The translations under genes and the position numbers were made by a program. This document shows positions 22,601-55,600 of a stretch of DNA of 64,000 nucleotides, in pieces; positions within the stretch are counted from its first letter, which is position 1; each line of letters starts with the position of its first letter. This DNA is from Phoronis australis (Eukaryota > Animalia > Phoronida): contig NMRA01000046.1 of the NCBI GenBank assembly GCA_002633005.1, forward strand, positions 808,144-872,143. The letters run 5' to 3'. The notes under the pieces are model-generated. The model made no database searches. It saw only the letters and a list, made by a program, of their open reading frames with translations, and was not told the DNA's origin.

Positions 22601-25600
22601 NNNNNNNNTTTTAATAAAACATTGGTGTAGACCAAGACTTTTACAATGCTATCAACCAAGGGTGAGCATAGCAACATTGTATATACTTTGTATATACATT
22701 GTATATTTCTTCCTGCTTTGAAAAAAGAGCCCCCACTGTGAGCCTTCAGAGGCTTCCTAGTAATCATTACAATGTGTGTGTCCAAACTTGAAAGGTTCCT
22801 ATTGACAGTGGGCGTCCAAATGATACATTGGGCGTCCTTGCCAGGGCGTCTATTTTAGTGCTGGGGCGTCCATTTGGACGCCCAGGACGTACGCTGCATG
22901 AAGGCCTGGTTGGAGGTTGATTTCCTGGTATGATTGGTTAACCTACACACATTACATGTGAGGGTTGGAGGTTGATTTCCTGGTGTGTGCTTGGATAACC
23001 TGAGGTTCTTCATTTATTGAATGTGAAACAAGTTGACATTTTGGTTAGATTGATCCTTTGATAAATATGAATGAAAATGACCACATTTCAGTCCATGCAT
23101 TATGTCTAGGACCAATATCTCAGATTATGTGAATGATTCAATCATGGTTTAATTGATAAGGTAATATTATGATTGACATTTGACAATTCGCAATAGGTTG
23201 GCTGTGTTCACGAAAAATTAGCACACAGGATTTTTTTGTTGAACTTCATGCTTTATTCACAGTAATTTTTTTGTTTTCCAATTCGCCAAACAGATCTTAG
23301 TTGTTGATATGAAACACCTTTTTAGGAAATAAACTGGTTTATAGTCTTTAGCTGCATTTACACCGGAGATAGTTGTTTCGAATCAACTAACAAGGAACAG
23401 CTGATTGGGCACAAATGTGTGTGTGAGCACAACTGATACGGAGCAAGTTGACACTGCGGCGGCCATTTTTACACTGGTTTGAGAGGTAGAGCGAGTTGCA
23501 CTTGATCAGTTTTCTCCAATATCAATTACATGTCTAAACACAAACTGGGGCAAAGCTGAAGGATCATCTCTGTTACGCTTGTGTAATAGTGTAGATTTGA
23601 GTGATTCACTTGCATTCCATGCAGAATGGATGTTCGATATGGTTTATGCAAGCATGTACAGACAGTCTTCGTTTAAATTACTCGTGCTGATCCACTTTGC
23701 AATCAAATGTCGTGTAAGTGCATTTAAAGTGGAGCAAGTCCAATCGTTACTACTTGCAACGTATGAACTGCACCCCGTGTAAAAACAGTTTAAACTTCTG
23801 ATTTCTTTTGTTGGCTCTTGATTCTGTGAATAGAAAATCTCATGTAGTGGTAGTGGCAGTGGCAGTGATAGTAGTGTTCAACAAAGGCTGCCATAAGGTG
23901 CCATGTCAAGGTGACCTGCATTTATCCTTTATTTGAACTTGTGCTCTGGTTATTAACCTGCTAATGAAGAACTTCCAGTGAAGACTTTTATGGTTTCGCG
24001 AATATGTGTTTCCATTATTCCAAAGAGTTTGTGAAGGTTGTTTTTGTTATAGTTTCGTGGATGCAACAACACTTGAGATAGTTGTTTATCTCATGGTAGT
24101 GTGGAGGTAGTGATACGTCATATAGCTTACATCACCTACAACTGCTGATGAAAGTTATTATGTATTAGGGATGAACACTCATCACCACCATGGCAAGTGC
24201 ATTTTATTCTTACACAGAGGCTTGCTGTCTTGTCAGTGCTGTGATTAATTAGTACATCCTGTCGCAGAAGCCTTGGGGATTCCTTCTACAGGAAATGTCA
24301 TATGAAGCTTGCCAACTAAAATAATTGGCTGTTTTTGCAGACCAGTGCTGGCGGCTAGTCAGCTATTGGATTTTATGCACCATAAAAAGCAAATGTTGAT
24401 GGAAATACCACTGGTGCCTCGTTGGCATTTAAGCTATGCAAATAATTTTAATGTGAGTGCATTGATTTTGGGTGGATTGTTAACATTCTGACATCATTCC
24501 CAGCTATGTGTATTGCGTTATCCTTGTACCTTTTTTACTGGTAGTTGGTTGCCTACCAGAACAGAAATTGTTACAGTTAATTGGGTAATATTCACTTTCA
24601 TACTAATATTGGGGAGTTACCGTTTTTATGAATGGTTTAATTTCAGTCCTGCATCGAAGTTAACAGCGCCAGTTAACTTTGCAGTAAATAGGTGTACTTA
24701 ATAGCGGAGTGTCAATGGTGCGGTGCGGTATGAACAGTCAACTTTGGTCTCATCAAAGTTATCGCCAGTGGCCACTGTTATTGTCAACAATTAGAGGGCT
24801 GTGTTGTCACTAATTGTTGCTTATATTTTGCTCACCAATCAAATTCGAAATAAGTTTTATGTTAGCAGTTTAGCACACGTAAATGTTCTAATATGGTCAC
24901 ATTAAAAAAATTTTAGCATGCATGGGATGCATGTGATTACTTTGATGATGATAGCGTCACCTACCATTTACTTCAATAGAATTAAATACTGAAGGTGGTG
25001 GTATGAACAATTCAACTAAATTCGCAGTTTACCCTGATGCTCCGCTCATTCTGGAGATAAGTTAGTATGAAAGGGTCTTTAGTTGTGAGTTGATCAGTCC
25101 TGTTTACATAAAGCATTATATGGAACTGGATCAGCAAGGAAGTCAGTTCCGGGTTTTCTGGTTTGTGGATGCTTGGGGTTTACAACTACAAAAGCCAAAG
25201 CCATTGTAGAATTCCAACTATTATGTCAATGACAATTTGTAGATACAGCACAAATTGTGCAAGGGTTACAAATGGTCATCTGTTGCTGTCCTATAAATGC
25301 ATCATTATAGATGTCCTAGATTTTGAAAAACAGTATGATGTGGCTGATGCCCCTTATTTAATGGAGGAAATTGGTTCTCAAAATGTGGGACTCCCTGTAA
25401 GTGGCTATTACCATTTATTGCTTAAGAGCCAAGAAATAATAGGACATCTACAGTAAGATCTGAGACTTGGCTTCTCAGATACAGTTTTCTAGTAAATTGT
25501 GTTTTCCCATCTGCACTTATTGAATTTTCTGAGTACTAAATCCAAACAGGATATGGTGACTTGCTGTTATCAGTGTTGTTTACAAACTAAACCTGGGTGA

Positions 25601-26230
25601 CCTTTGAGTATAATGTGGATGGTAATGGGGTATTTTCAGAGATGTCACTCAGAAGTTGGCTTAATCATGTTAATCCCTCTACTGTGGTGTTCATACTGAG
25701 ATTGAGATGGATTGATTTCACAGTAAAACCAGTATAATCTTTATTAATTTCATTTCAGGACCCAATTGGTGTTAGATGGGTTAGAAGACGCTAGTGTTCT
25801 AGAAAATGAGCAGGATGATGGAATGTCAGATAAACATGGCTGCCCTGCTTATGTGAGTCCGGAAATCTTGCAGAACAGCGATCGCTACTCTGGTAGAGCT
25901 GCTGATTCCTGGAGCCTCGGTGTTGTTCTCTACACCATGTTAATAGGAAGATATCCATTTCATGACTCAGAGCCTGGCGCTCTGTTCAATAAAATCCGCC
26001 GCGGACAGTACACTGTGCCAGAGTCTGTGTCTACGAAAGCCAAGTGTTTGATCCGTAGCTTGCTGAGGCTTGTGCCGTCCCAACGCTTTACTGCTGAGCA
26101 AGTTCTTCAACATCCCTGGTTCCATTGCAAGTCATTAATGACAGCCAAACCTCGTCTAGATTCCAAAGACATGGACCAAACTGTGCCAGATATCTTTAAT
26201 GGTGCAGAAGATGCATCACTCTTCTGTTGA
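19614..26230 (+). CDS. TRIB2: Tribbles homolog pseudokinase (TRIB2-like), 3 exons, about 341 aa
   Basis: Exons 19614-19874, 20135-20427 and 25759-26230 join in frame. Motifs: LRDLKLRKF, DGLED in place of DFG, DKHGCPAYVSPE, HPWF and the C-terminal COP1-binding DQTVPD. The paralog symbol is nominal for an invertebrate gene. Confidence 0.93.
20879..20891. promoter_or_regulatory. Perfect T-MARE (Maf/CNC site) in Tribbles intron 2
   Basis: TGCTGAGTCAGCA, a 13-bp consensus match, within a cluster of bZIP and Fox motifs. Confidence 0.5.
21033..22114. mobile_element. hAT-like element fragment running into the assembly gap
   Basis: CAGGGCTCG terminus followed by four CCAG(G/C)TCGCA subterminal repeats; the other end is not visible. 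Confidence 0.45.
22115..22608. other. Assembly gap (494 N)
   Basis: A run of n characters. Confidence 1.
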
Positions 26231-31893: not shown

Positions 31894-34800
31894 ATGGGAA
31901 GAAAAAAGAAGAAGCAGTCGAAACCTTGGTGTTGGTATCCTTTGAATGATGAAAATATTTTCAAGCAAATTTTGCGTCGTGTCTCGTTAAATCTCTTCGT
32001 TCCGTCCACGACCAAGTCGGTAGTCGGTAGATAGACGCACAGGCGCTTGAGTTTATCTGTTACTCGATCGCAAATGACGTCACTCACTACTAAGGAAACA
32101 TAAAGGTTGGGCACTCAAAATCTGTTTGCTCAGAATTTTCTACTCAAATGAGCATGGAACTCCACGAAACTAGCATCGAACAATTCTTTGAATACCTTCT
32201 TTCATTTGATCTCTTCAAATTGCCTTCGAGTGGTGATTTGTCATTTGACGACAAAAAATGTTAAATTCAAGGACCTTATTTTGTGACAGATGACCTTCGA
32301 GCATTTGGGTTTTTGGCGGATCTACAGCAAAATCCGGCAATTACCGATGATGATTTACCGCGACTAAGCGTGTGGTCAGACATTGGAAATGTCCGCCAAA
32401 AACCGAGTGTTCGTTGTGCTTCAACAAAGAATACCACATAATGTCAAGATCAAACACAAGATACACCAATTCTTGCTATTAAATTCTAGGTTAAAGGTTA
32501 AAATGAGCTATAAGGAGAAACAAATTACACATAAATGGAAGGTTAATTTTAATAACCTCAATCATTGAAATTGGGGATAATTTTCTTGACTTTGACATAG
32601 GGGTTGCTTGCTTAAATTCGGAATTTTATCTTCGACAGACGAACAAGTTTAAGCACAACTGAAATCCGCCATGTTAACTATTTTAGGTCCTTGAATTCAA
32701 ATTGTTGAGTTTGTTTCGAAAATTTCGTCGCCAATTCACCACTCACAAGGATAATTTAATGAAATCAAGGAAGAATAAGGCTTCGGAGATTCATGCAATA
32801 CCAGTCTGAGAAAGATACATGGAAATTTTATTTGGATTTGGGACAGTTGAAGTTGGGAGTCTCGGCTTGGCAAAGTTTTAGTGTCCAACCTTTATGTTTC
32901 TTGTATATGGTTTTGAGTCATCGGAAAATTCGAGCGCCTCAACGTTGGCGTTCCCATTTGCAAAGGCTTTGGCCTTAAATGGTGTTGGAACTGGAAATAT
33001 GCACAGTGAAAGTGTAGAATCAAGTGCCATACACCTAGCCTTTTTTACAAAGCTGTATACTAAATATACAATTTTGCACCGGTGTGGGTAAAAATGACTA
33101 AATAAAAGCTGACACATAATTAGTGTCATTAAAAACTACACTTTTCCTTGAGTACACTGAATTATTTACAAGTGCAATGTTGGAAAAAATAGCGTTCTTC
33201 TGAATATTCTGCTGTTAATGTTGTGGAGCGATCTTTTGCGTTGGCTTTCAACGCCATGAAATATTGCGTCACCTATTGACCAGTTTCATTTTTCTTCAAT
33301 CAGCCGTTCTTCTTTCATGAAGTTGCGTGCATGCCACAACAAATTATTGGAATTGGTTTCGTTTGGTTTTTAGTATTTTGATACCAGCAAACTGAATTTC
33401 AGAACAAATTGGGCTGCTGCGAAGCTGTTGTCATCTTTCAAGAGATGTCACAAAAACTCAGGAAATGGCATATGTCACGAGTGTACTGTTTTCAAAACGA
33501 CGACATACTTTTCTTTGTTACTAACGGCGGAGAATTACGCAAGAAACTGATGTTTATTAGATTATGTTTTACTTAAATGGCTGTAACAGGCAAGGCGAGT
33601 GTCAGTTGACTCCCAGATTTTGCATGCATCCTTGTCGGTCTTTAGCTCTGCATATTTATACAAGTTTCACGGCGTGGTGACTAGCAGAACTACCCCGGCT
33701 GTGTGCAATTTGGAGGTCTGTCTGCACTGAACACACAATGGTACCTAGCTGTATTTTGACAATAGTCTTCATACAGCTAGCTAGCTGGCTGCCATACGCA
33801 TCGCACTCGAATTGTTCATCAAACATTAATGCGCACGCGTCGAAATTGCAATTTCGTGAAAACGTTTATTTTAAGAAATAATATGGCGAATATAACTGCA
33901 CAGAAATGTAGCCCTTAGAATTTAGAACTTGTTCACTCAAGGATTCAACCTTTTTAGTCGGTAAACCCTGGTAAAAGTGGAGTAAATGGGTCCCTCTTCA
34001 AAATGGCTGCCGATAACGAGTTTTCACTGAATAACGAACATTGCCGGTATCTATTTTGAAAAGGGGCCCTGTTTACTCCACGTTTATCAGTAAACCAACC
34101 CTTGAAAGTTTAGAATCAAGTGCCGTACATAACACACTCGAATTGCACATCAAATAATGTGCACACGTTGAAATTGAAACAAGGGCCAGGACTTGTCTTT
34201 CAGCAGATTAGTTTTGAGTCGTTAAGAAATTCTCTAACCTCTGTTTCTGGGGCTGAGCATGTACCTAGACAGGAGTCATCTGTCACTCACATGTTGCTGG
34301 CAATGTAATGTGTACTCCAGCCATTCAAGTATGGGAACTTAGCGTGCATACCACTCCAAAGCCGCACATCAGAAGCGAACAGAGATAGTCCTAAATAAAA
34401 AGAGTACAAGCTTTTCTGTGTCAAGCACCCAGGTGTTTATTTAATAATGAACCCTGGTACTTTACAATGTTCACCGGGCCCGATGTTCCCGACACAATGT
34501 TCCATGCTTCTGTAACTAAACTGGTAAGCATGAAATTGTGGTTGGAGAACATTTATTCGAATAACCCGATAATAGAAATCTGTTGGGATTCAGAAGTATT
34601 TCAAGGATTTTGAAGAACTAATCATTGAATATGTAAACAACACAAGTTACAAGAATTTTTCTTGTGTCATTCAGCCATGGGAATGTTGTGGGGTTTTCGA
34701 AAGAATAATTCCCAATCGCTGGAGTTCCAAATTTTGGACAGCAAGCAAAAGGAAGTAGTTTGTTGCACTTAGAGTTATCGATCTTTGACGACTTTGATGA

Positions 34801-37800
34801 CAGTCATTAGGCAGTTAAATCCTAGAAAAGTCACAGGTATTTTTCCTATGCGTATTTTCTCCTGTTTCAAGTTGCATACTTAGCTACTCGAATGCATGTG
34901 TCGATTAGAGTGCTCATTCAACCATTCGCGTCGGCAACTAAGTCGCTCCCAATAAAGTGGCCTGCAATGGTTGGAAATCGCACGCCCGTTCAAGTTCTTC
35001 ACTTCATTTGTCACAATGTAAATCATTGCCAATATTCAGGATACCAACTTCGTTCACCGGTAAGCCCCCGGTGTCATTTTCGTTAAAATGTCTTGTACTG
35101 ACTGTGACCTTTTGTCTAAACGAATCGCATAAAGTTAACATCTATTTGCTCAGTTCGAGCACACTGCGTCAATGTTTTTTGTTGCTGGAGCTTTGAGACT
35201 CCCATCAAAATTAACTTTACATTCAGGATGGAAATACTAGAGGGAAGAGAAACTTTTGAACTCTACAAAAAGCTGGGAAATGATAGAGTGCAACTACTGC
35301 GCTCTGAAGATTTGCTCGCCATCAGGGTGACCAGCCAGTGAACTTCTACTCACCCAGCACCATTTTTAGTCGCATTGGTGACTGGGCGAGTGGCTAAGTA
35401 TATCCCTGTCTGGCCTGTCATAACATAACCACAATCATATCATCACCACAAGGCTTAGATCACCTAAAAACAGCAACCGTAGATAAGACGTAGAATCTAA
35501 AACTATTTTCTATCAAACAGGCTCCCAACAAATCACTAACAGTTATTGTATCTTTTGATGGCACTTAAAAGCATCCTGCTTTTAATGTTTGCTTCAAATT
35601 TGTGATTAAATATCAGAAATTTGTCTAAACTTGATGCATCCCTCTTTTGCACCTAACTGATGTTAATGGTCAAATTCAAACATGCAATAGCAGCTGCCAA
35701 TTCATCTAGGCCGCAAAGTTTAATAACGGGGAAGTGATAGCATATTGCACGAAACTGAATCCTCCTCAGACATGGAATCCTGCTAGTTTTTCACATGAAC
35801 AATGCTGAGAAAATGTATTTGATAAATACGTGCTCCTTTGCTTAGTCATTACAAATCGGTTTTCCTCATTACATGGGATGACTAGATAAGAGTTTTTGGC
35901 ATATCATCATGCCTTTGCATACCTTCATAAACCTGTGGTAAGCAATCCCTGAGCAGTTTTTCTGTGTCTTCGCAGCAATCAAATGTCCCACTGAAATTCA
36001 AACAATACTGTGAAAATTGGGGTTAGGCACAACAAACTTTGTTGTGTCATGGAAGCTAGATGATCTTCAAACTGCATTTCTTAACTGCTGTGCCAGGTAT
36101 TGTAACCGTGAATTTGATGATGAGAAGATCCTAATCCAGCACCAGAAAGCCAAACACTTTAAATGCCACATCTGTCACAAGAAGCTGTATACTGGACCTG
36201 GCCTGTCTATCCACTGTATGCAGGTATGTTAAAATACAAGCCTATACTGAACCTGGTCTGTCTATCCACTGTATGCAGGTATGTTAAGATACCAACCTAT
36301 ACTGGACCTGGTTTGTCTATCTGGTATGTTAAGATACAAGCCTGTACTAAACCTGGTCTGTCTATCCACTATATGCAGGTATGTTAAGATACAAACCTAC
36401 ACTGGACCTGAGCTGTCTATCCACTGTATGCAGGTATGTTAAAGGAGAATGTCACCCAAGTCTTTTTTACCGTCGTAATCGGTCTATATCCACATCGCCT
36501 CTTATACAGTTGACCTCACATTGCCGAGAGGTGTCGCGTTAAAGTGTGAGGAAGGTGAGAAACGACGCAGCGACGTCAGTGATTCGTCTGCAGAGTTAAT
36601 GCCGCTGTATTGCTGTGCATCGTTCCCGCTTGTCCGAACTATGAAGCTGTGAAGAAAGCGGGTATATCGTTTTTTTCGACTTCCTAGAGCCTGAAATGCT
36701 TAGGAAGTGGCTCACGGTAGTAAAGAATGAAAGGTACGCTGTTAATAGCAAGTATGAGGCCGTGAAACATCTCCGTGTCTGTGGCAGGCATTTCGTCGAC
36801 AGTGATTTCTCTGACAAATTCGGGCTTACCAAAGAACTATCCATACGTTCCGTTGTCTGTGCATGGTCACGGCGACTCTCTAGTGTATCTTAATCAGTGT
36901 ATTCCGGTTCGAATTGATACCCTGTGAAACCTATGATCCGACCCGTGAAGTCTTCGTCGGATGAACTCTTGACTAAGTCGGGATTGGTGCCGTGCGAGTT
37001 GCTATGTATTCCGCATTCTGTTTCAAAATGAATTATTCTCATCCTAACCAATGCTTATATAAAACTGAAAAAAGTCTGTCTCATTAGATACAATTTTTAA
37101 TGCCTTTGCAGTATTCGTGAGTAAATGTTGAGAAGCCAGCAATGAATAAACCACTGCGTTACGGGCTTTTGATGCCAGCAATGAATAAAGGTAATTAACC
37201 GGGCACTGAGGCCGTGTGACTAATTCAGTGTTTGCTGACAGAAAGCTGTTGTGAAACAGTTACTCGATTTTATATGCTATGGTCTTAGTTAGAGGAATCT
37301 TTATTTCAGGGCTTGGAATTTTCCGCGGAAACGCGGATTTCCGCTTTTTTCAAATGTTCTTTCCGCGCATTTTATTATACTTCCGCGTAAAAAAAATCGG
37401 ATTTGATATAAAATTTCCGCGGCAAAGTCCTTTCTTATCGCGGCGTTGCAAACGACGTTCACCTCGAAAAGCGGAAGTTGCTCTTTATGTTTCGGAGGAA
37501 CGTAAATTGTCAACATTGCCAGGGCATCTGGGATAGCGTGGTGGGATTTTCAATGGCGTCTCGTGTTATTGTAAACCACGGCGACAAATACTACGGCTCT
37601 GCAGCCAAAAGTTAGTGGATTGGGAGTGGACGGGCGACCTAAAAGGACGCAGACGCATGTTACTGATGGTGGTAACGTTTTTTTTTGTTCTTTTTTTCAT
37701 TTTTTTTAGTCCCGATTTTTGTCGGGGAAAGGTTTACTTTGACCACTTCAAGGCTGGGTAGCGCGCGCATGATTTGAGCTGTAAAAGTTTCCGCGTTTTT

Positions 37801-40800
37801 TGTCATTGGTCATTCCAAGCCCTGTTATTTAGAAATACAGATACATTATTCAAATCATTGTTAATGTACAACCTTTGCCCTGACGGTCTGTGGAAGGGGA
37901 ACCCGACTTCGCGGCCCCCGACAAGTAATTAGATTTTCAGTTTCGTGGCTAATTCACGTAAATAATTACGTGCACATTATTTCTATGGCTCACTATTATC
38001 AGTGTTGTAGTGGGGCGTAGGCGCAGCCAACCACCTTTTGGCATGTGAACGTAGCGCCTACGCACCGTAAGTTACGTTCTATGCTCAAGGTGATACGGTG
38101 GGCTTTCGGCGCCTACTTACCTCTACTTTTGCCACTACAGCACTGACTGTTATAGTGTTTTCGTGGCTGGAGGTTTAGTTTCCAACTCAAGCTGGTTTAT
38201 GTTCTTGCCTGCCCCTGCGGCTGCGACGGACCTGATCGGGTTCCAAGCCACTGGACAGGATAACGAGTCAGTCCGGCCGCAACGGGCCTGATTGGGTTCG
38301 AGCCACTGGCCGGGATAACAAGCGTTTTGTGTGTTTAGAACACAAAAAATCACAAGTCTAAACAACACAGATCTTGGTTCTCTTGTCTGTATTTCACAAA
38401 TAATACTTCGAATTTATCTCCAAACAGACCCCAAACTCCTGCTACGGACCTTGGTAAATTGGCTTGCTGACCTTTGTAGGCTATGGTGTGTCCAAATACC
38501 AAATGAATAAATCCGTAATATCGAAATAAAACAACACGTTTTTATAAGAACTCGGTGTATTTTTAAGGGTTTTACATCGAAGTTTGGTGATTTATTGATA
38601 TTAAATGATGAATTCAAGCGATAAGCTGACACCAGTAACCCGTGTTGGGAACTGCTGAACAGACTGCGTGTGAAACAAATGATGTCGTTGGATAATATCA
38701 ACACCTCTGTTTGCCGTCAGGTGTCGGGAAACGCAACCGAATGTGCCGTTATCGAGTAGAACTACACGATCTAAGTTGATACTAAACAGATTGTTTTTTG
38801 GGTGGCATTCTCCTTTAAGATACCAACCTATACTGGACCTGGTCAGTCTATCCACTATATGCAGGTATGTTAAGATACCAACCTATACTGGACCTGGTTT
38901 GTCTATCCACTGTATTCAGGCATGTTAAAATACAAGCCTATACTGAACCTGGTCTGCCTATACACTATTTGATAGTTATTTCATTATAGAGCATGTTGGA
39001 GTAAATGCGCTTTTTGACTCAACTTGTTCCAGGTTCACAAGGAGAAAGTGGACTCGGTGCCTAATGCATTGCCAAACAGAAACAATGTGGACATTGAAAT
39101 CTATGGAATGGAAGGAATACCTCAGGGAGACATAGAAGAACATGAGAAACAAAAGAAAGGCGGAGGTGGAGGTAAAATGTAGACCTGTTTGAATGTGACT
39201 AGAATGTCTATCAGCCAGAAATATACATATGTTTGTAGTGGAGGTGCTGCTGCCAAATTATTGTGGTGTGTGTGTGCGTGTGCGTGTGTTATTACATGGC
39301 GAGGCTATTGTTTCCCTCATCCAGACCCTGAGTGGGATTTGGAGCAATTGTCACTTAAGGGGTGTCAAACCCGAGAGTGACAAATTCTGCAGATTCCACG
39401 AAGGGTCAAGTTGTTGCAAAGAACTGCCAAGAACCTGTAAATCCCACCTAATGCGCAATTAAATCTACGAATCTCACTAAAAATGAAAATATTTAAGTTT
39501 AGTTATGCTAGATGTCGAGTCATTCTTATACGGCACAATGGATGAAACCAGACACATGATCATGTTCTATAGAACATTGCTGCATATCTTTCATGTTTCA
39601 TTCCAAATTCTTTGCCCCCAGGAGAATAGGTTTGCTCCAGTTATTTACTGTTCAGGGTTGCTTTGGGACATAAAATGTTCTTATTCTGTTGCAGCTAGCT
39701 GGCTGGCACTGTGATATGATGCAGTATTTTGAACCGTGCTTTATTTATTGTCAACAGGTGAACCTAGCAATAAAAAGGCTCGGCTGGATGACAGCGATGA
39801 AGACAGTCAACCAGCCATGCCCAGTCAGCCGTTAGCGCCTCCAGTGCCACCCATGACTGGTCCAGGCATGCCACCGATGCCACCTATGGGCATGATGGGT
39901 CCTATGATGGGACCAATGGGGCCTATGGGACCAATGCCACCGATGGGTCCAATGGGTCAGTACATTGTTTCAAACTAGTTCTATTTTGTTTGATGAATTT
40001 TTCAGCAAGTGATTATTGATTCACACCAAATAAAATGTGATTTTTTGGTGTGTTTATTCAAAGTTACAATAATATGGTACAAATACAGTTACCTCATCAT
40101 TAGATTTGGGTAGAGTTTTTTCCAAATGAGACTGAAATCGCACACCACCTCTGGTTACACACCACCACATATACCCAAAGCCCTCCCTCAGCTTAGAGGA
40201 CGAAGGGAAGGAATTTTGTGGCCTGGTGAGGGGACTTTTTGCTTGACTTGAAACAGGGGAATTGGGATGATGTTTGGGTCCAAAATAAAGACGTTGAGGT
40301 CCATAGTAGCTTAAGGTATGGTCAAGTAATTTGTCATTAAGATACTTAAACGACTTTCAGTGATATACAGTAAACTTGTTGGAGGATAAGACAACAAAGT
40401 AATTGAATTTAGTATGTATGAAAAATGGTTCTCTTACGTGTTGATTACATCTTTGATGCTCTAGCCTGCACAACATCCAATGATAAGTTAATGTTGCTTT
40501 TTGGGCCATTCACCAGTTCAAGAAGAGTTATATAGTTTTACCTTTTTCATTTCTCCGCAGGTCCTATGAGACCAATGGGTCCAATGGGTGGTATGATGGC
40601 ACCCATGATGGGTCCTATGCCTCCTCGTCTACCTCCGGGTATGAGGCCACCTCCGCACACACAGATGAATCCTGTATCCACGCAGAGTGGTCCCACAAGA
40701 ATGTTATTCCCAGCTGCTGGTCAGGTTAGTCTAAATGTGGTGTATGGTGATCATAATCTTTTGACACCGTTTTGTTAATGCAAAATCAAAAATCATTTCC

Positions 40801-43161
40801 TAACCTCATAGTAGATTTTGGTGTAACTTGATTAAAGGAGCATTATGATGCTGTTAATTTTGAATTCTTAAGCAAAGCGCTTTGGGGTTTAAAAACTAAC
40901 ATGCTCATCTGATCTTGAATTTTTACCAAGTATGCTGGCAACTCGTGCGGTATGCCATTTTTAAATCTGCAATTTTAGGGTTGGCTAACTGTAGTTAATT
41001 CTGAAGGGTTTTCCTGTGTTGCTGGTAGTTTGTAAGTTCTTGGTATTGAAGATAAGAGTCCTATCATGTTTAAGACTGTTATGAGAACGGTTTTGAGTTT
41101 AGTCAGCTATACTGTGCATATGCAGCTTCAGTGCAAGTTGCCGTCATGATGTTTAAGTACCGTATTCGCCGTAATAACCGCCCAGGGCGCTTAGAAAAGT
41201 TCGGTTTAAGGGGGGCGCTTATTATAACCCAAGGCGGTTGAAACCCGGTCTCCGAAACGGGTGAAATCGGAAGCTAAGATTCATCAAATTTACGTTCTTT
41301 GACGTATCTGTAATCTATGAAAGACTTCCAACAAAACTGTGGTGCATTGCTATCAAACTTAGCTGCTAAATTACGATCATTTTANTGTTAATTTTGAATT
41401 CTTAAGCAAAGCGCTTTGGGGTTTAAAAACTACCATGCTCATCTGATCTTGAATTTTTACCAAGTATGCTGGCAACTCGTGCGGTATGCCATTTTTAAAT
41501 CTGCAATTTTAGGGTTGGCTAACTGTAGTTAATTCTGAAGGGTTTTCCTGTGTTGTTGGTAGTTTGTAAGTTCTTGGTATTGAAGATAAGAGTCCTATCG
41601 TGTTAAAGACTGTTATGAGAACGGTTTTGAGTTTAGTCAGCTATACTGTGAATATGCAGCTTCAGTGCAAGTTGCCGTCATGATGTTTAAGTAGTTGGAT
41701 TTTCTTTAGGTCTTATGTTGTGGTCAAAATAAGTTTTCTGCAGTCAAAACAATGATGACCCACCCAGCTCTCTAAGAGTTTCTATAGAAACGTTGACGAA
41801 ATATTTGTTTCCAACGCTAACCTTCTTCTGAGTATTGACTGCTTCAGGACATTGTGATCTCATAGGACTGTGTTCAGTATAGTTAACACTGGAGACCTGT
41901 TTCATTGTGATCTCATAGGACTGTGTTCAGTATATTTAACAGTGGAGACATGTTTCATTTGTTTCTGTACAGTCACAAACCAAAACAAGCTCAGCCCCTG
42001 TTGGCCCCGATTTCAAGCCCACTCAACCTCCGTCTTCAAGCAACAGTCAATCAACAGCTAATAAACCAACGTTCCCAGCCTATTCAGGGGGTGCAACCAC
42101 TGGCCTACTGCCACAAGAGACGAACACTAATGTTACCATATCAGCTGCACCTACCGTGAAGAAAATAGAAGGCTCCAAACTCATCCATCCAGATGAAGAT
42201 ATTTCTTTGGTAAGGTTACTGAATGATTTTATAGTTATCCTTTGACAATGATTTGTTATGGGGCATTGTGTTTCATGTAATATTGACTACTACTTGGATT
42301 CGTACTTTAGCATAGACTAGATGGCTCCAATCTATTCTAGCGCATGATTGTTCATAGAAGTAACTCGCACTACCCACAAGGGCACAGGTTGATTTCATCA
42401 CAATAATTCTCTTTTAATTCCATGTTGATATCTGCTAGGTAATAGTAACATCTATAATATCATTGTTTGCGTATACTGCAGTGATGTTTGTAGTACATGC
42501 GCAGCGCTGAAGCGACATCTATCAAGCTAGTCAACTGGTGTGGCTTTCCAACTCGGGAAGTTGCTACAATTACAAAATGGACTGTTTTCGGCTTGCACGA
42601 AGCTGACTTTGTGGTGGAACGAGGCTAGGTATAATTTTGTATTTCCATTGTGTTTTTACAGGAGGAGAGGCGGGCTAGTTTTGGTAAATACAGGAGCAAG
42701 GGTCGGCCAGCTGGAATGCCTGGTGGCCCAGCACCACCACAGATGATGCAAGGTGAGTTGATAAAAATGAAACGATTGTGCTAGACTATGTCTAAATCAC
42801 CGTTCAGTTTACTGTTGCCCACTTCAGAATCAGTGAGCTCTATTCAAAAAAAATGTTGCATTGTAATCACAATGGCTTTTCTTTGTTAAATTGTTCATTT
42901 TAAAACTCTTGCGAAAATGTTTTTGGTTAATTACTGTGTTTGGTTTGTTAAGCTGTGTGTTTTTGGCTTTAGGAGTGGGTTTGTAGCCATTGTTAAATAT
43001 TGTGCTCTTGTTTTTACAATGTTGTCTAGTTGTGTTTCTTCAAACCTAAGAATACAAAATTTTGTGGTGTTTTTACAGGTCAGATGGGAGTCCGACCTCC
43101 ACTGATGCCCACCCCGCCCATGTTTAGACCTATGATGATGCCAGGAAGCGGCCACTACTAA
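31894..43161 (+). CDS. ZNF207: BUB3-interacting GLEBS-motif zinc finger protein ZNF207/BuGZ, 8 exons, about 359 aa
   Basis: Exons 31894-31934, 36097-36223, 39033-39171, 39758-39955, 40561-40724, 41973-42209, 42662-42752 and 43079-43161 join in frame. N-terminus [60 protein letters not shown], then [10 protein letters not shown], a Pro/Met/Gly-rich region, KPTFPAYS and the GLEBS motif [16 protein letters not shown]. Confidence 0.96.
32180..32790. mobile_element. Degenerate inverted-repeat element in the U12 intron
   Basis: AATTCAAGGACC pairs with GGTCCTTGAATT, and GAGTGGTGATTTG with CAATTCACCACTC. Confidence 0.5.
33915..34115. mobile_element. Small palindromic MITE
   Basis: GTGGAGTAAATGGGTCCCTCTTCAAAAT pairs with ATTTTGAAAAGGGGCCCTGTTTACTCCAC. 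Confidence 0.6.
36599..36893 (+). pseudogene. Frameshifted THAP zinc-finger remnant of the transposon
   Basis: Across frameshifts it reads C..VPACPN...GISFFRLP, then LRKWL...[13 protein letters not shown], the C2CH THAP signature. Confidence 0.7.
37307..37824. mobile_element. MITE nested in the Kolobok-like element
   Basis: TIRs CAGGGCTTGGAA and TTCCAAGCCCTG, flanked by the direct repeat TTATTT. Confidence 0.7.
38000..38145. mobile_element. hAT-like MITE nested in the Kolobok-like element
   Basis: TIRs CAGTGTTGTAGTGG and CCACTACAGCACTG; 8-bp TSD ACTATTAT/ACTGTTAT with one mismatch. Confidence 0.75.
40852..41693 (+). repeat. About 308-bp near-identical direct duplication across an N, with a truncated TACCGTA-type MITE between the copies
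   Basis: 40852-41159 matches 41386-41693 with a few substitutions; the N at 41385 is exactly at the junction. Confidence 0.85.
41850..41960 (+). repeat. About 53-bp tandem duplication just upstream of the ZNF207 exon 6 acceptor
   Basis: CATTGTGATCTCATAGGACTGTGTTCAGTATA.TTAACA.TGGAGAC.TGTTT occurs twice. Confidence 0.85.
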
Positions 43162-43547
43162 TGACTGCGCGGTTTGGTCAATGAACTTTTTTATTAATGC
43201 GCCTTTCCCCAGCCATTCATAGTGATATTTTTATTCCAGTTCCACATATGAATGGTAAGGTTGTACTGTGGTGTTTTGCAGCCAATAAATGGTGCTTACG
43301 GGTTACACTGCTACGCTGAGGTTATGTTAATTTCTTGACGCCAAGAAGATCCAAAGGTATGGCTAGTGGTGTGTAGTTTTACGTCGGTATTGTCCAGGCA
43401 TGCTCACTTGTGTTTTATCAGTTTGGATCAACGAGGACTGTTGGCCCTAACAAGGCAAGTCGATATTGTCTAATGTACTGCTGTGCTATATTCACTCAAT
43501 AAAGTTATCTCCGCCTCAGCCGTGTTGTTATGGACTACAGTAAGTGG

Positions 43548-43879
43548 CAGGCAAGTTGTGTCACAGCCATTGTGCTGTTGGGTAGTCATGCCCCCAACAC
43601 AGTAGTGTTGGTGACGCTTTCCTTTCACTCAACCATCACCAATACCACCATCTAGTGTACAGTACGACGGGTGTTTGACGAGCAGGCAAGTGTGCTCTTG
43701 TCACAGCTAATGTGCTGTTGGGCTCTAAGCCCCCAACACTGGCTTAGTGTTGGTGACTCTTTGTTTCACTATATCGCAGCAACTGGACCATCAGGCGAGC
43801 TGATTGACTCAGGCAAGTGACCTCTGGTCACAGCACTTGCTGTTGGGCTAACGGCCCCCAACATGTTATTGTTGGTGAC
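43548..43879 (+). promoter_or_regulatory. Three-copy structured RNA element (GC-type 5' splice-site motif plus four-way junction) in the ZNF207 3' UTR
   Basis: Units at 43548-43615, 43683-43757 and 43810-43879 share CAGGCAAGT-N3-8-GTCA-CAGC-loop-GCTG-TT-GGGY-loop-GCCC-CCAACA-loop-TGTTGG-TGAC. Stems are conserved while loops and spacers differ. G-U pairs favour the + strand. Function is inferred. Confidence 0.75.
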
Positions 43880-46683
43880 TCAACACTTTGACATTCACAC
43901 TCGTACTTCATTAAATGCGTTTCTGCGAATGCTTGCCTCTCTGTAAATGATTCAGAACCATCATGTAGCTTTTGCTTTCAGATTTGATTTATGGTTATCA
44001 TACTTGAGAACATTAAAGACGTACTGAGAATTTTTTTTCACTGAAATTTCTGAATGCTGGAATATTTTAATAGATTTTAATTCAAGAGAAGGGCGTTTTC
44101 CTCACAAAAGAATTTCCATAATTTTAGACATCTTTAAGATGATCAAGTGCTCTTATTTATTTCAAAGTTGCATTTGTGGTGTATATCTGAAATCTTTCTG
44201 TCTCTAACTATACCACCAATAAGGAAAATGTGAAGTTGTTGAGATTGTAAAATTTAAAACTAATGTGTATTTGATTGAAAACACAAAGTTTATCATTTAT
44301 TGATATACTTTGACATCAACATTTACTGTTAGCTGTAAATGTAGGTGAAAATCTTCAATGTTTTTTTATTTCAAATTTATCTTGCCACCGTTTTTGTTTT
44401 TAGAAATATCAGTGTTTTCAACTGTTGCACTGCAGCCTGCGATAAACCTGGTATGTACGTAATGTACTTGTGTGCACATAACTTTAAGTTGCATTTCGTC
44501 ACTGTCCCGGTCAATGTTGATTTACTAAACAGAGCACTTTGGGGTTTAAAAACATTACCTTGCTCATCCAATCTTAAATTGTTACTGAATGAGCCCTCAA
44601 GCCTCGGGCAATGCACATATGTGCTATTTTCAAATGGGCTAACCCCCAAATAAACTGAAGCATTTTCTTACGCTGCTGGTGGTTTCGATTTACTTGTCAG
44701 TAATGGAAATAGAGTGATCATGGTAAGAATATGAGATTTGATGAGAGGAAAACAATTGTTTTTTTAAGCCAGCTAAACAGGACGAAATGCAGCTTTTAAT
44801 AGATGTTTGTTAACAGCAGATCACATTCAGAAATTGTTCAATCTGGCAATCAATTACAAATCTTATGAAATGGTAGTTAAATCTTGTTTGATGTATTTAA
44901 GAGAGCTCCTCTTTTAGATTTCAATAAATATTTGACCATAAAATGTGTTGTATCTCAATTAAGTAGTTTATTAAGACTCAATATTATCAGCACACAATGT
45001 GTGCATGCAACACAGATGGGCTGTTATTCACGCCTTAAAGCCACTCTGCTGGATTTGAATTTGCATTATCTGCCAATTCAGAATTGCACTTCCCATTTTC
45101 AACAAGTTAGCAATATATCACAAGTTTGCTTTATGAGCTTTGTGTTGAAACGCATTCAGCTGTTGTGATGCAAAGTACAAGTAATCGTAAAGTAATTGCT
45201 CTTCTAGGATAAATGAATACTCATGTTATGTCTGCTTGTATGTTTATCAAACTACAATTTGACTTCACTACATTCATAGTGAGCTATTTCCTACACTGAG
45301 CAATATTAAAACTGCTAAGAAGCATGTTCTGGTATATTATCCTATTTGCATGAATTGGTTGAAAACACCTGGATACTGGTCATACTACATTGACATTTGA
45401 AACTAACCTGTCGTGACAAACGAAACTTCACTCACCTCATCTACAGCAACAACAAACTATCATTTCTTCTTCCTTTAAATTATTTCTAATATGAGTAAGG
45501 AACAAAGTGAGACTATTCTGTTACAGTAGATGGCCTAAATCAAAATATGTTTTTGGCAAAGGTACAGGTTCATTGCCCCATTAAGTAAGGGCCTACAGCT
45601 TATACTGAAAATGTAAGGGGTGAATTGACCCAATGTTTTTGTGTAAAAGGTCCACATTTACATATTTCGTTTAAAACGAAACAATGCTTTTATAGGCCTG
45701 GAAATTGGCAAATTAGACCGTGTGAAACTAGCCTCGTTTAACTGGCATTTTTTACAGTCTCTCTGTTAATCAACAGTCCTAAAGACATTATCACCAAGAA
45801 ATTTAACAACTGTGATAAAACGATGGTATGATATGTACATGATACTTCCATTGTCATAGACTTATTTAGTCAACGATGACCGAATTACTTTGTGAAATGT
45901 ACTATCTTGATTGTTTATTTCGTGGTAATGTCTTTGGAACAGCTCCACAGGTAGTGAGACTGTATCAAAAACTAGCCATTCAACTGGAAATTCCAGTGGT
46001 GTGTTAAATGATACTTGTATGAAAAAAGAGTTGCTGCAAATTTGTATGATTTAACAATCTAAATATAAAACATATGAGGTTCACCTGAGACCTGTAGCTG
46101 TCTGGGAAAAGTTAGCGTTAACCTATCACTTCAAACTGTGAATTAATTCTTCCAACAAGTGCAAAACAAAATTAAGACTTGCCATAATCCTTTCTGTGAA
46201 TTGTAAAGAAGCAGTGTGCACTATAACTGCAGAAAATTGTTAGCATTTTCACATGAGATCAATAATGTGTTTGCAATGAGAGATGAATGGCCGTGTTGAG
46301 CTCTGACTGGGATGGTTTTTGGCTAAACATAAAAAGTTCAATGTAAATACATGTCCATACATAATGGTATTAGTTTTGAGCCTTGGAAGTGCACCATGCA
46401 GCGCCATGTCTGAAAACCATTCTTATTAACGTGACAAAAACTGATCAAATGGAATTCATTGATGGTTTAAACGAAGATTCACCACCGCAAACTTTGATTC
46501 ATTTGAGTTTTGAAGTTTGCGAATTCGGCTTGACCTGGTTAGTACTGCATGGAATTTTATGTACCAGTATATGACACAATCTTTTGAATAATTTCAATGT
46601 TATGCGACTCCTGACACTCATGGATGCAAACATCATCCAGACATCGATGTAAATATCAATCAGTTACTTGTAACGTGCATCAT

Positions 46684-52600: not shown

Positions 52601-55600
52601 TGTTTATTTACAAATCAATAGTAGTCCTCAAATTAAGCTGCACACTGATTACAGTATACAACACCACTTACCTAAACAATAACCAGTAAATGTGCTTGGT
52701 TTAGAGCGGAACTTTAGGTTTTCTCCCTGTGTACCCCACCGCAGAATGTTGTAGAAATTGACATCGTTGGTGCTGTTTTCCAAGACCTCTTCTGTGACAC
52801 TCCACTGTTGAGTTGCTTCCTTCCACCTTCCTGACTGTATGTCTGCTGAAGCCTGACGTGCAGCTTTATCTATGGCTTGTTTACCATTTTCATCTACGAC
52901 CGACTTAAGAGAACAAACATTAATATACCGCGAGCTCAAGAAAAAGTCACAACCACAATTAAAATACAAAGGATACATTGTCAAACTACCAAAACGGTTC
53001 TGAAGTGTATCTGCCAAAGGCTCCAAATCTTCTATGTACAACTTTTTATGATTGACATATTCAATAACAAGAAAAGTAATATGTGCATCTTAAGCTCCCG
53101 GAGATATGATAAGTAGATTGAAGTTGGCGAAATAAGGTCATTTATTAAGATTAATTACGAGTGGAAAGAATATGAATGAAAATAAAAATACAATTTGTAA
53201 AAAATAATAATCTCTGAAGAAATGGACAATAAAGAAACATTGAAGACAGCTTGTTAGTGTGAGAGCTCAAAAGCGTCTTTCGCTTCAAATCACATTCTTA
53301 TACTGGTGTGCACGAATGGCAGAATTCATTGATAGGGCATAGGTGAAACACTGAACAGCAGATGTGACTTGAGTTATCACCACACAGGCTCTGATGTGTT
53401 ATCACCACACAGGCTGTGATGTGTTATCACCACACAGGCTCTGATGTGTTATCACCATACAGGACCTGATGTGTTATCACCATACAGGCTGTGATGTGTT
53501 ATCACCACACAGGCTGTGATGTGTTATCACCACACAGGCTGTGATGTGTTATCACCACACAGGCTCTGATGTGTTATCACCACACAGGCCCTGATGTGTT
53601 ATCACCATACAGGCTATGATGTGTTATCACCACACAGCCTGTGATGTGTTATCACCACACAGGCTCTGATGTGTTATCACCACACAGGCTCTGATGTGTT
53701 ATCACCACACAGGCTCTGATGTGTTATCACCATACAGGCCCTGATGTGTTATCACCATACAGGCTATGATGTGTTATCACCACACAGGCTCTGATGTGTT
53801 ATCACCATACAGGCTATGATGTGTTATCACCACACAGGCTATGATGTGTTATCACCACACAGGCTCTGATGTGTTATCACCACACAGGCTCTGATGTGTT
53901 ATCCTCTAGCAAATCCACTCAAGCTGAATTACATTTAGTGACATATTGATTTCATGTTGTTTGTCAGCTACATGCTAACAGTATTCTGATTTCAAAGCTA
54001 TAGTTCAAGTTGGTTTTCTGGGCAATTCTGATGATTCAAAAACAAATTTTGAATGTGTTTTTGTAAGTAAAGACAAATACACCCATCAGAAACAATGTTT
54101 CAGAACAGTCAGGCGAGGTTAGTTTGTAATTGGTTTGTAATACGAGCCAAGTAAAGTGCAATTAAGAGGAAGTCGACACTCATTGTTGTGTTGTCTCCAC
54201 TTTCACAACAGAAAACTGATGTCGATGTAGATATACGCGATATCAAAAACAAAGATACTCGCCATATTCACCTAATGGAAGAAACCCAATTACTTTTGTT
54301 CACAGAGATTTTGAGACATTAGATATTTGCGAAAATTGTTTGAATATTACTGCTGCAGTACTTGCGTAATAGCAGCAATTTAACAGATGATTACAAAAAC
54401 TGATATTTGCTTTGGGAGTAATTTGCACTGCAGTTATCTTTGTTAGTAACGACCCCTGGTGGAACTTGTAGAAATCGAATAAAGCGCTTCCGGTATAGTC
54501 ATTTCAACGTGTTCTCTGGTGCTTCTTAACAATCTTTATTTCTACTACACGAGGCATTATCCTTTGTTCTGTAGTAAACAGACACAAATCTTTTATGAAC
54601 AAACTTACAAATCTTCCTCTCGATACTTACTGTTGCAAAAAGATATGGTGCCCAGGACAGTGTGGATGCTTCAGGAGATATCCATGAATCTCCCATGGCA
54701 AAACCCTTGAAGTTACATCGAACAGCTTTTGATTGGATGGCACCATGAAGACCTTGACTGAAAGCAGCAGCCATCTTACCACCATAAGACTCGGAGAATA
54801 CATAAAATGGCACCGTCTGAAAAAATATAGCAAAAGTATTAAGACCACTAATGCATTAATTCTATTGGTTTTGCGAACCCACTTCAGTTTTTAGTTTCAA
54901 GCAGTTATAAACACACCTCATGACGGCGACATCCCGTTCTCCCAACTTGTTCGATTTTATAGCCCAACAACAAGTTGGGAAGTTTACCCCCATGTAGCCA
55001 ATTAACTCCATTCTGGCATTGATGGTTGGAGGGCCTGTGCTCTTTTGTTTGATAATTGCTCTAATCTCCGATCAGATCATATCTAGCGTGACTGGGGTGG
55101 GCTGATAAAAATGTAAGTTAAGTTAAGCCAGATATTATCGCACGTTCAACACCCCTCACGTCTAGTGGAAAAGTTACTGAACGACAGGACGCTGTAATGT
55201 TCAGTAAAAAAACTTTCTTTTTCATTTGGGCTTGAAGAGGGTAACTACATGTGGAGAATTTCTCATTTACACTGGTCACCACTCATATTCCATCAGCCCC
55301 AGACAACTGCTATGATGCCTATTCTGCACGCTCTTTGTATTGATGTAGATCTGAGCTAATGAAGTGGAAAGGTAATAGCTGGCACTACTGTCTCAACAAA
55401 GGTAGTAGTCATTACACCAAATTGGTTTTCTCTGGCATTTGCACATCACATCCTGCAACTGTGGAGAGTAGTTTTAACAATGGTACATTTTAAATATTAC
55501 AAATGACTACAAAAGTTAAATTGTGTTTATCTTGACCAAAGGCAACCTCCCAAAGGAACGATGGTTTTAAATGTTTTCGCTACTTCATTAGTAATACTCC

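What the first reader, a model, noticed from the sequence alone, without database searches (positions are those of the whole stretch)
43548..43879. Triplicated GC-donor plus four-way-junction RNA element in the ZNF207/BuGZ 3' UTR
Seen in sequence: three units about 130 nt apart, separated by unrelated spacers. Each begins CAG|GCAAGT (43548, 43683, 43810) and 3-8 nt later folds into the same cloverleaf: P1 GUCA/UGAC, P2 CAGC/GCUG, a UU linker, P3 GGGY.../...GCCC, and P4 CCAACA/UGUUGG stacked directly on P3 and P1. All loops differ in sequence or length (P2 CAUUGU/UAAUGU/ACUU; P3 GUCA/CUA/AAC; P4 AGUA/GGCUU/UGUUAU). Pairing is kept: P3 pairs 4-5 are U-G/A-U, C-G/U-A and C-G/U-G, and P4 is 7, 8 and 6 bp. 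Each unit is followed by a pyrimidine stretch containing UUCAC. This pattern fits selection on RNA structure rather than a recent tandem duplication, and the G-U pairs place it on the ZNF207 sense strand. Established: CAG|GCAAGT is the GC-AG donor consensus and pairs with the U1 snRNA 5' end except at +2; U1 itself has a four-way junction; splicing regulators often control their own mRNA through repeated elements (MAT2A hairpins, USSE in RNPC3/SNRNP48). ZNF207 has been linked to splicing and, as I recall (to be verified), to U1 snRNP. Inference: a feedback sensor in which BuGZ or U1 occupancy at weak GC donors, gated by a structured and possibly U1-mimicking RNA, sets the fate of ZNF207 mRNA. 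I recognise no named RNA family for it.
Basis: partly seen in the sequence, partly recalled or inferred. Interest (0 to 1): 0.9.

Follow-up and report, generated by a model that had tools for sequence, protein, structure and literature searches.

The report
Repeated RNA cloverleafs in BuGZ mRNA
In several distantly related invertebrates the tail of the BuGZ/ZNF207 message carries three to five copies of a conserved, apparently undescribed RNA element predicted to fold into a cloverleaf, most copies sitting just behind a weak splice signal not seen to be used, which likely lets this splicing helper turn down its own production.

Summary
The three units are real. They are transcribed, unspliced, in a long ZNF207 3' UTR isoform and are kept in a second species, where unit 1 changes only in loops. 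A metagenome scan found the same element in six further non-redundant loci. Three of these lie in ZNF207 3' UTRs (one bivalve-like, two annelid-like); three hold no coding DNA. In all there are 28 units, 3-6 per locus. The junction core is nearly invariant and the outer stems covary (96.6% of cells paired; 24 double-changed cells, 0 of 500 shuffles as high). 21 of 28 units carry MAG|GCAAGU 1-18 nt upstream, always GC and never GU. There is no Rfam match, no dispersed copy and no paper in my searches. Human ZNF207 binds U1 and is needed to retain and degrade mRNAs with an unspliced 3' UTR donor. The best reading (0.55) is therefore a ZNF207/U1 negative-feedback element. Neither binding nor function was tested.

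The parts
31894..43161 (+). Host gene ZNF207/BuGZ, start codon to stop (TAA 43159-43161); last coding exon begins at 43079
   Evidence: ORFs; exon peptides match ZNF207 homologs; splice joint 42752>43079 in 31, 39 and 35 reads; ATG position
43162..44960 (+). Long 3' UTR isoform containing the array (continues beyond 44960; end not mapped)
   Evidence: X1 contig runs 43077-44960 unspliced with 3112 further bases; reads of X3-X5 lie on the mRNA strand
43284..43289 (+). First AATAAA; changed in organism B
   Evidence: 43289 A>T
43452..43460 (+). Orphan GC donor AAG|GCAAGT without a junction; no change listed in organism B
43498..43503 (+). Second AATAAA, 45 nt before donor 1; intact in organism B; candidate proximal poly(A) signal (use inferred, no poly(A) reads seen)
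43537..43545 (+). GU donor-like site ACA|GTAAGT just before donor 1
43548..43556 (+). GC donor 1, CAG|GCAAGT
   Evidence: no joint seen from it
43560..43615 (+). Four-way junction 1: P1 43560-62/43613-15, P2 43563-67/43574-78, U 43579, P3 43580-84/43589-93, P4 43594-600/43605-11, Y 43612
   Evidence: 51.9 bits with model R1 (training member); organism B changes only 43569 and 43603, both in loops
43683..43691 (+). GC donor 2
43700..43757 (+). Four-way junction 2
   Evidence: 56.3 bits (training member)
43810..43818 (+). GC donor 3
43827..43879 (+). Four-way junction 3; alignment to organism B ends 6 nt after it (43885)
   Evidence: 58.8 bits (training member)
43968..43981 (+). Candidate 3' splice site (pyrimidine tract plus CAG) downstream of the array; no use seen
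   Evidence: sequence; no joint to it

Best explanation
This is a conserved array of RNA modules in the long 3' UTR of ZNF207/BuGZ, each a weak GC-type 5' splice site followed by a predicted four-way junction, that likely acts as a negative-feedback sensor: U1 snRNP would dock on the weak donors without productive splicing only when ZNF207 is abundant, and the marked mRNA would be held in the nucleus and degraded. Shown: the modules, their conservation, the covariation of their stems, their place after the stop codon, and their presence unspliced in RNA. Inferred steps: (1) the near-invariant junction core is a sequence- and shape-specific protein site, most likely for the ZNF207 zinc fingers or a U1 partner of ZNF207; (2) the fixed C at +2 keeps U1 pairing weak so that occupancy depends on helper dose, and 3-6 copies steepen the response; (3) bound U1 may also suppress the poly(A) signal just upstream, as the HIV-1 major donor does, shifting output from a short, element-free mRNA to the long, repressed one; (4) retention and decay would run through LENG8 and PAXT, as for human 5'ss-PAS reporters.
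For: Conservation: the scan pattern held only the P2-P3-P4 core. Yet 9 matches in 7 of 57 loci also carried GUCA and GUUGGYGA, which were not searched for, and 8 of the 9 also carried the donor; the other 50 loci had neither the donor nor the P4 partner. L027 is a spliced, full-length ZNF207 mRNA; L026/L040 and L055 are ZNF207 genes; units lie about 390-830 nt after the stop in all 4 anchored loci. Best named protein matches are an annelid for L027 and bivalves for L026. Structure: 25 units, 96.6% of cells paired, 24 double-changed cells against 8.9 shuffled, 0 of 500 shuffles as high; slid controls 33-58% paired. Outer pairs of all four helices beat permutation (P1 0/5000, P2 0/5000, P3 98/5000, P4 22/5000). 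Held-out units score 44.4, 38.5 and 31.5 bits against at most 23.9 outside. Over 14,204 nt of these regions AGGCAAG occurs 26 times (1.0 expected, 4 antisense) and GGTAAG 15 times (2.8 expected, 2 antisense). Unspliced in reads of X3-X5, in the contigs of X1 and X2, and in L027. Selection: organism B has 0 changes in 51 core positions of unit 1 against 39 in the other 431 (P=0.011); 0 of 15 listed variants of organism A fall in units (P=0.023). An AATAAA lies between stop and array in 4 of 4 anchored loci, and depth over the units is roughly 19, 25 and 39% of proximal-UTR depth (my arithmetic). Literature: ZNF207 zinc fingers bind U1-70K and U1 snRNA (PMC12952242 section 13); ZNF207 loss relieves 5'ss-dependent retention and decay of a 3' UTR reporter, and tethering it lowers mRNA (PMC12363940). 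The window's zinc-finger exon matches the mammalian records at 39 of 41 residues, K42 included.
Against: No binding, probing or reporter data. The human results used a reporter donor, and whether a GC donor behaves the same way was not seen in what I read. Absence of joints is weak: depth is 4-25, only about a fifth of each run was read, a joint needs 3 reads, and a spliced form destroyed by NMD would be hidden. P1 is predicted closed (P>0.5) in only 8 of 25 units in context, and donors are often predicted paired. 7 of 28 units lack a donor and 5 donors lack an intact junction, so the two parts are separable. The long isoform is readily seen in bulk RNA. No poly(A) reads mark the proximal site; the depth fall could be library bias; AATAAA is only mildly enriched (15 seen, 8.6 expected). 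The search patterns fixed part of the 'invariant' core, and the shuffles ignore relatedness. 3 of 7 loci have no coding DNA to place them. The passages on autoregulation in the ZNF207 preprint do not concern ZNF207.
Confidence: 0.55

Rival explanations
1. The GC donors are real but regulated splice donors: high ZNF207, helped by the junction acting as an intronic enhancer, activates a 3' UTR intron, and the spliced mRNA is destroyed by nonsense-mediated decay.
For: The donor is a perfect GC-AG consensus and the junction lies on its intron side 1-18 nt away. L003 and L055 share a pyrimidine tract plus TTTTAG and a following short motif after the last unit, then paired GU donors. The window has a candidate acceptor at 43968-43981. 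ZNF207 promotes poison exons in LUC7L and LUC7L2 (PMC12952242 discussion).
Against: No joint or loose end at any GC donor in three runs. Three transcript contigs are unspliced there. The window's candidate acceptor lies outside the block shared with organism B. A fixed GC in 21 of 21 donors suits binding better than efficient splicing (inference).
Confidence: 0.2
2. The array is a cross-regulatory or export/stability element read by another protein (for example a LUC7, RBM25, LENG8 or m6A-pathway factor), so ZNF207 mRNA senses U1 pathway state rather than ZNF207 dose.
For: Nothing here identifies the junction's ligand. Donor-less junctions persist, often at array ends. SNRNP48 and RNPC3 USSEs are auto- or cross-regulatory (PMC8329584 passage).
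Against: All 4 placeable loci are ZNF207 and no copy was found beside another gene. ZNF207 itself is a U1-binding RNA-binding protein.
Confidence: 0.13
3. Spliceosome-mediated decay: the spliceosome performs only the first step at the GC donor, cutting the mRNA from its tail, as for yeast BDF2.
For: In run X5, 5 molecules begin at 43550, the last base before donor 1's GC, and depth falls 33>23>14 across it. It is the only such pile-up listed for three runs. Precedent: PMC3792478 (abstract).
Against: Seen in 1 of 3 runs, 5 molecules only, noticed after the fact; the tool's 'begin' does not say which RNA end; no conserved branch point was found (UUCAC not enriched).
Confidence: 0.07
4. A self-acting RNA: ribozyme, nuclease-resistant RNA or tRNA-like processing signal.
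For: A compact, near-invariant four-way junction repeated in a UTR.
Against: Loops vary freely in length and sequence, leaving no pseudoknot or catalytic loop. No Rfam hit, no ARAGORN hit. Reads run through the units. It would not explain the donors.
Confidence: 0.03
5. A decayed tandem repeat or transposon with no function.
For: Copies share identical stem sequence, and minus strands fold about as well.
Against: Only 3 copies in 64 kb. One locus per assembly prefix in the metagenome scan. No read of X3-X5 with loose ends at the units. Present in ZNF207 of bivalve-like and annelid-like animals with unrelated spacers and compensatory changes; unit order is shared between L003 and L055.
Confidence: 0.02

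Closest known systems
U1A (SNRPA) 3' UTR: U1 site plus PIE
   Same: A U1-associated protein's own terminal exon pairs a 5'ss-like U1 site with a protein-binding RNA structure to lower its mRNA (review PMC5071671, passages; the primary paper was not held).
   Different: PIE is bound by two U1A molecules and blocks poly(A) polymerase. Here the structure is a four-way junction, the donor is GC, the module is repeated 3-6 times, and there is no Rfam match.
USSE and conserved U1 site of RNPC3 (U11/U12-65K) and SNRNP48
   Same: Repeated, unspliced 5'ss motifs in a long 3' UTR give feedback through nuclear retention; a conserved suboptimal U1 site controls cleavage/polyadenylation (PMC5473595 abstract and section 8; PMC8329584 passage).
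   Different: USSE is a tandem U12-type site for U11 that activates an upstream 3' splice site, with no junction described in what I read. Here the sites are U2-type GC donors, each with a fold.
5'ss-PAS transcripts retained and degraded through U1, ZNF207, LENG8 and PAXT
   Same: An unspliced 5'ss in a terminal exon ahead of a poly(A) site; ZNF207 is required (PMC12363940 section 5 and passages).
   Different: Described as quality control on reporters and misprocessed RNAs in human cells, not as a conserved structured element in ZNF207's own mRNA.
MAT2A 3' UTR hairpins (recalled)
   Same: Repeated conserved structures in a 3' UTR that tune mRNA splicing and stability.
   Different: Simple hairpins with a conserved loop motif read by METTL16 (recalled). 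Here the loops are free and the junction stems are fixed.
Ultraconserved pseudo-5'SS of ENOX1/Enox
   Same: A deeply conserved, unspliced donor acting through U1 snRNP (PMC13100119 abstract).
   Different: Single, intronic, 9 nt, a splicing silencer; no structure is mentioned in the abstract.

Membership tests
U1A-type U1 site + PIE autoregulatory element | Unspliced 5'ss-like site in the terminal exon | tested here: met
   low depth limits the 'unspliced' claim
U1A-type U1 site + PIE autoregulatory element | PIE sequence and structure | tested here: not met
   No Rfam match over the units; that Rfam holds a PIE model is recalled
U1A-type U1 site + PIE autoregulatory element | Structure bound by the gene's own product, lowering its mRNA | not testable with these tools
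   Needs binding and reporter assays
USSE (RNPC3/SNRNP48) | Tandem U12-type 5'ss bound by U11 | tested here: not met
   Donors are MAG|GCAAGU; no TATCCTT in the window's 3' UTR
USSE (RNPC3/SNRNP48) | Activation of an upstream alternative 3' splice site | tested here: inconclusive
   Only the normal last-intron joint and one minor downstream repeat joint were seen
5'ss-PAS retention/decay substrate (LENG8, PAXT) | Unspliced 5'ss upstream of a poly(A) signal in the last exon | tested here: met
   Donors at 43452-43818; AATAAA at 44649, 44923, 47041 and 48881; the distal site used is not mapped
5'ss-PAS retention/decay substrate (LENG8, PAXT) | U1-dependent nuclear retention and exosome decay | not testable with these tools
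   Needs fractionation and knockdowns
U1 or U11 snRNA copy or mimic | Match to the snRNA covariance model | tested here: not met
   No such hit at E<=10 or E<=1
U1 or U11 snRNA copy or mimic | Three-dimensional likeness to the U1 four-way junction or stem-loop 3 | not tested
   No U1 sequence or structure was fetched; a comparison from memory showed no shared junction sequence and is only a lead
tRNA-like (mascRNA/menRNA type) | tRNA geometry with conserved D and T loops | tested here: not met
   ARAGORN 0 genes; loops variable; linkers 0/1/0/1 nt
Known ribozymes or xrRNAs | Conserved unpaired core or pseudoknot; Rfam match | tested here: not met
Spliceosome-mediated decay target | RNA ends at the donor without exon ligation | tested here: inconclusive
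   5 molecules at 43550 in 1 of 3 runs
Transposon or satellite | Many dispersed or head-to-tail copies | tested here: not met
   no whole genome was held, so the test is indirect

The most novel reading that the evidence does not exclude
The four-way junction is the natural RNA ligand of the ZNF207/BuGZ zinc fingers. Paired with a GC donor it forms an ancient, multi-copy sensor, shared at least by molluscs and annelids, that counts ZNF207 and hands its own mRNA to U1-triggered retention or spliceosomal cleavage. It would be a new RNA family, the first defined cis element for ZNF207, and a case where a splice site is held at GC across phyla so that it binds U1 conditionally.
Probability: 0.35. 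Interest if true: 0.92.

Novelty: new variant of a known kind. Interest (0 to 1): 0.82.

Why it matters
ZNF207/BuGZ is an essential spindle-checkpoint protein recently recast as a U1 snRNP helper, and the authors of PMC12952242 say the RNA contacts of its splicing-active domain remain to be defined. A 55-60 nt element with a fixed junction core, present in dozens of natural variants in the gene's own mRNA, is a ready-made candidate ligand. It makes that question, and whether ZNF207 autoregulates, directly testable. It would also add a new structured RNA family in under-sampled invertebrates and a natural test of what a strictly conserved GC donor does when it is not spliced.

Tried and rejected
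Own-genome search and file: none held, so dispersal was tested indirectly. Rfam: 0 hits at gathering score in the window; only chance hits at E<=10 in 43100-44300; none on units in six homologous loci. ARAGORN 0. Viral contigs: 1 chance match for each of two patterns, and no ZNF207 relative. Prokaryote genomes: 39 pattern matches; of the 40 loci searched (these and L098) 12 gave model hits, best 23.9 bits with broken stems. The look-up of sequencing runs listed no holder on record as RNA; the raw RNA runs were laid directly. A switch in which the donor is sequestered by the strand after the junction: 12 of 21 units above their shuffled tails, mean 0.39 against 0.32, rejected. An alternative pairing of the first GUUGG with CCAAC: negligible in nearly all of 25 units. 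UUCAC as a motif or branch point: not enriched. A>G editing in the units: none listed. Extending L055 and L026: records not held. The window's taxon from its GLEBS exon: only 2 hits, best named an annelid, so lophotrochozoan is an inference. Earlier findings: nothing on this element; one unrelated BuGZ exon note. The exon-2 identity printed was out of frame and was not used; the 39 of 41 count compares one search's peptide with the mammalian rows printed.

Full report
Observation. CAGGCAAGT occurs three times in the window, all on the + strand (43548, 43683, 43810), and the cores GCTGTTGGG and CCCCCAACA occur only in these units. Each core folds into a four-way junction with z -3.6, -3.5 and -2.4; the reverse strands fold about as well. 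The spacers are unrelated. The host gene is ZNF207/BuGZ: ATG at 31894, stop at 43159-43161. AATAAA lies at 43284 and 43498, before the array. Rfam gives nothing at gathering score for the window and only chance hits at E<=10 around the units.

Transcription. No genome is held for the window. Three raw RNA runs of the same species label (about a fifth of each read) and one contig set were laid. Reads cover the units at depth 4-25 in the same orientation as the coding exons, and one 5439-nt contig runs unspliced from the last exon past 44960. Depth over the units is roughly 19, 25 and 39% of the proximal UTR (my arithmetic on bins 43565-43894 against 43103-43366). This fits a short isoform ending near 43520 plus a long one, but no poly(A) reads were listed. 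No joint or loose end starts at any GC donor (threshold 3 reads). One pile-up is listed: 5 molecules at 43550 in run X5 alone.

Second species. The contig of organism B aligns over 43079-43885 with 66 substitutions and 11 gaps and stops 6 nt after unit 3. The table shows 40 of 70 rows, all up to 43643, so only unit 1 can be read. Its two changes are in loops: 0 of 51 core positions changed against 39 of 431 others (Fisher P=0.011). The AATAAA at 43498 is intact and the one at 43284 is not. Of 15 listed variants within organism A in 43162-44030, none is in a unit (P=0.023); a few weakly supported rows were not shown.

Distant homologs. One exact scan of metagenome contigs with a pattern covering only the P2-P3-P4 core gave 57 loci with 60 matches. 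Nine matches in seven loci also carried GUCA and GUUGGYGA, which were not in the pattern, and eight of them the donor; the other 50 loci carried neither the donor nor the P4 partner. L040 is nearly identical to L026, leaving six. L027 is a spliced ZNF207 mRNA of 370 codons with three units about 830 nt after the stop. L026 and L055 are ZNF207 genes with units about 530 and 760 nt after the stop. L003, L028 and L042 are short contigs without coding sequence; L003 repeats L055's module order. The best named relative of the L027 protein is the annelid Lamellibrachia, those of L026 are the bivalves Ruditapes and Dreissena, and L055 shares the annelid-type motif before HPDEDISL. The window's exon also hit Lamellibrachia best, weakly. 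So the element likely spans molluscs and annelids. Whether arthropods or chordates have it is untested, since an exact pattern would miss diverged forms. Each assembly prefix gave one locus, which argues against a dispersed repeat. Viral and prokaryotic scans gave only chance-level hits.

Anatomy. Twenty-five units aligned give RUC, ACAG..CUGU, U, GGG..CCC, CCAAC..GUUGG, Y, GAY: a four-way junction with two single-base linkers. 96.6% of cells pair; 24 cells change on both sides against 8.9 in shuffles (0 of 500); slid structures pair 33-58%. An anchor-based permutation on 26 of the 29 model hits (L003e and two decayed L026 units left out) supports the outer pairs of P1 (0.78 against 0.59), P2 (0.89 against 0.71), P3 (0.90 against 0.84) and P4 (0.71 against 0.46). 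Neither control corrects for relatedness, and my patterns fixed part of the core. A covariance model scores training units 50-66 bits and held-out units 44.4, 38.5 and 31.5; a fourth scores 24.3, at background level; nothing outside these loci exceeds 23.9, and the window's next hit is 14.9. In context at 20 C, P2, P3 and P4 are predicted in 21, 24 and 23 of 25 units but P1 in only 8, so junction closure may need a protein or metal ions. Loops are free in length and sequence.

The donor. 21 of 28 parsed units (29 given, one unparsed, L040 left out) have the donor 1-18 nt upstream. With C or T allowed at +2, all 21 are C; -2 is A, +6 is U, -3 is C or A, and +7 is G in 15. Across 14,204 nt of these regions AGGCAAG occurs 26 times (1.0 expected from shuffles, 4 on the antisense strand), AGGTAAG 9 times (0.8; 1) and GGTAAG 15 times (2.8; 2), while UUCAC is at background. 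These UTRs are thus rich in U1-type sites generally. The donor has no consistent pairing partner.

Mechanism. PMC12952242 (abstract, sections 11, 13, 14, passages and part of the reference list) shows that human ZNF207 binds U1-70K and U1 snRNA through its zinc fingers, K42 being critical; that exon is 39 of 41 identical here. The preprint PMC12363940 (section 5 and 12 of 13 ZNF207 passages) shows that a 5'ss in a 3' UTR causes U1-dependent retention and decay and that ZNF207 loss relieves it (about 4-fold rise in cytoplasm/nucleus ratio). A review (PMC5071671, passages) gives the precedents of the U1A 3' UTR and of the HIV-1 donor suppressing an upstream poly(A) site. PMC5473595 (abstract, section 8) shows a conserved suboptimal U1 site doing similar work in RNPC3. 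Putting these together, I infer a dose sensor: the junction recruits ZNF207 or a partner, U1 is stabilised on an otherwise weak GC donor, the proximal poly(A) site may be suppressed, and the long mRNA is retained and degraded (0.55). The rivals are regulated 3' UTR splicing with NMD (0.2), cross-regulation by another factor (0.13), first-step spliceosomal cleavage (0.07; PMC3792478 abstract), a self-acting RNA (0.03) and a functionless repeat (0.02). That the element is functional RNA of some kind is about 0.95.

Comparison and novelty. It works like the U1A and RNPC3 terminal-exon feedback elements but is a member of neither: no PIE, no U12-type sites, no Rfam family. U1 mimicry is unsupported at model level and untested in three dimensions. 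I found no description of the element in the search listings. These cover open-access PMC and bioRxiv only. Zhou et al. 2025 on ZFP207 and U1 (PMID 40050462) and Guan et al. 2007 were not held; I saw their titles and one-line summaries in other papers, and ZFP207 binding to U1 stem-loop 3 is recalled only. I read no supplements; tables from genome-wide structure screens could list a ZNF207 element. PMC13100119 was seen as abstract, and PMC8329584, PMC12953826, PMC12701963 and the bioRxiv version of the ZNF207 paper as passages. Earlier scan notes held nothing on it.

Verdict. Observation confirmed and extended to a multi-species family; interpretation partly supported. It is a new variant of a known kind of regulation carried by an apparently new RNA family. 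Interest 0.82.

Noticed in passing
window 31935-36096: ZNF207 intron 1 is U12-type: it starts GTATCCTTT and ends with a TTTCTTAAC branch-like motif close to the AG. A minor intron in ZNF207 is mentioned in PMC8329584.
   Followed up: partly
window 36133-36475 and 38774-39016: 55-nt tandem copies of the 3' end of the zinc-finger exon, including its donor, fill intron 2 and give several decoy donors.
   Followed up: no
window about 36440-38820: An insertion with terminal inverted repeats flanked by TTAA splits that tandem array and holds a THAP-domain fragment at 36645-36890 (E 3.6e-06); probably a DNA transposon.
   Followed up: partly
L003 1440-1490 (-) and L055 3665-3710 (+): After the last junction both loci share a purine/pyrimidine hairpin holding two canonical GU donors 18-19 nt apart (z -1.4 and -2.3). 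L027 has a similar donor pair; I saw none at that place in the window.
   Followed up: partly
window 43550: Five molecules of run X5 begin exactly at the last base before GC donor 1; not seen in X3 or X4.
   Followed up: partly
L003, L055 and L026 arrays: The third module in L003 and L055 and the second in L026 keep the GC donor but have a decayed junction, while the last modules of L003, L042, L055 and L028 keep the junction and lack the donor.
   Followed up: partly
window 7577-7867, 19587-26230, 52649-54855: Neighbouring genes: an NSMCE2-like exon (zf-Nse), a kinase-domain gene that looks like Tribbles (Pkinase; name by eye) and a minus-strand gene that looks like a serine carboxypeptidase (by eye; no Pfam hit on the one exon tested).
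   Followed up: no
window 43944: Three reads each in X3 and X4 join here to a sequence not in the laid stretch; possibly an allele with an insertion or a read from another locus.
   Followed up: no
L042 2506-2608 and 2859-2995: Long hairpins with sub-threshold microRNA-family hits, probably inverted-repeat elements.
   Followed up: no
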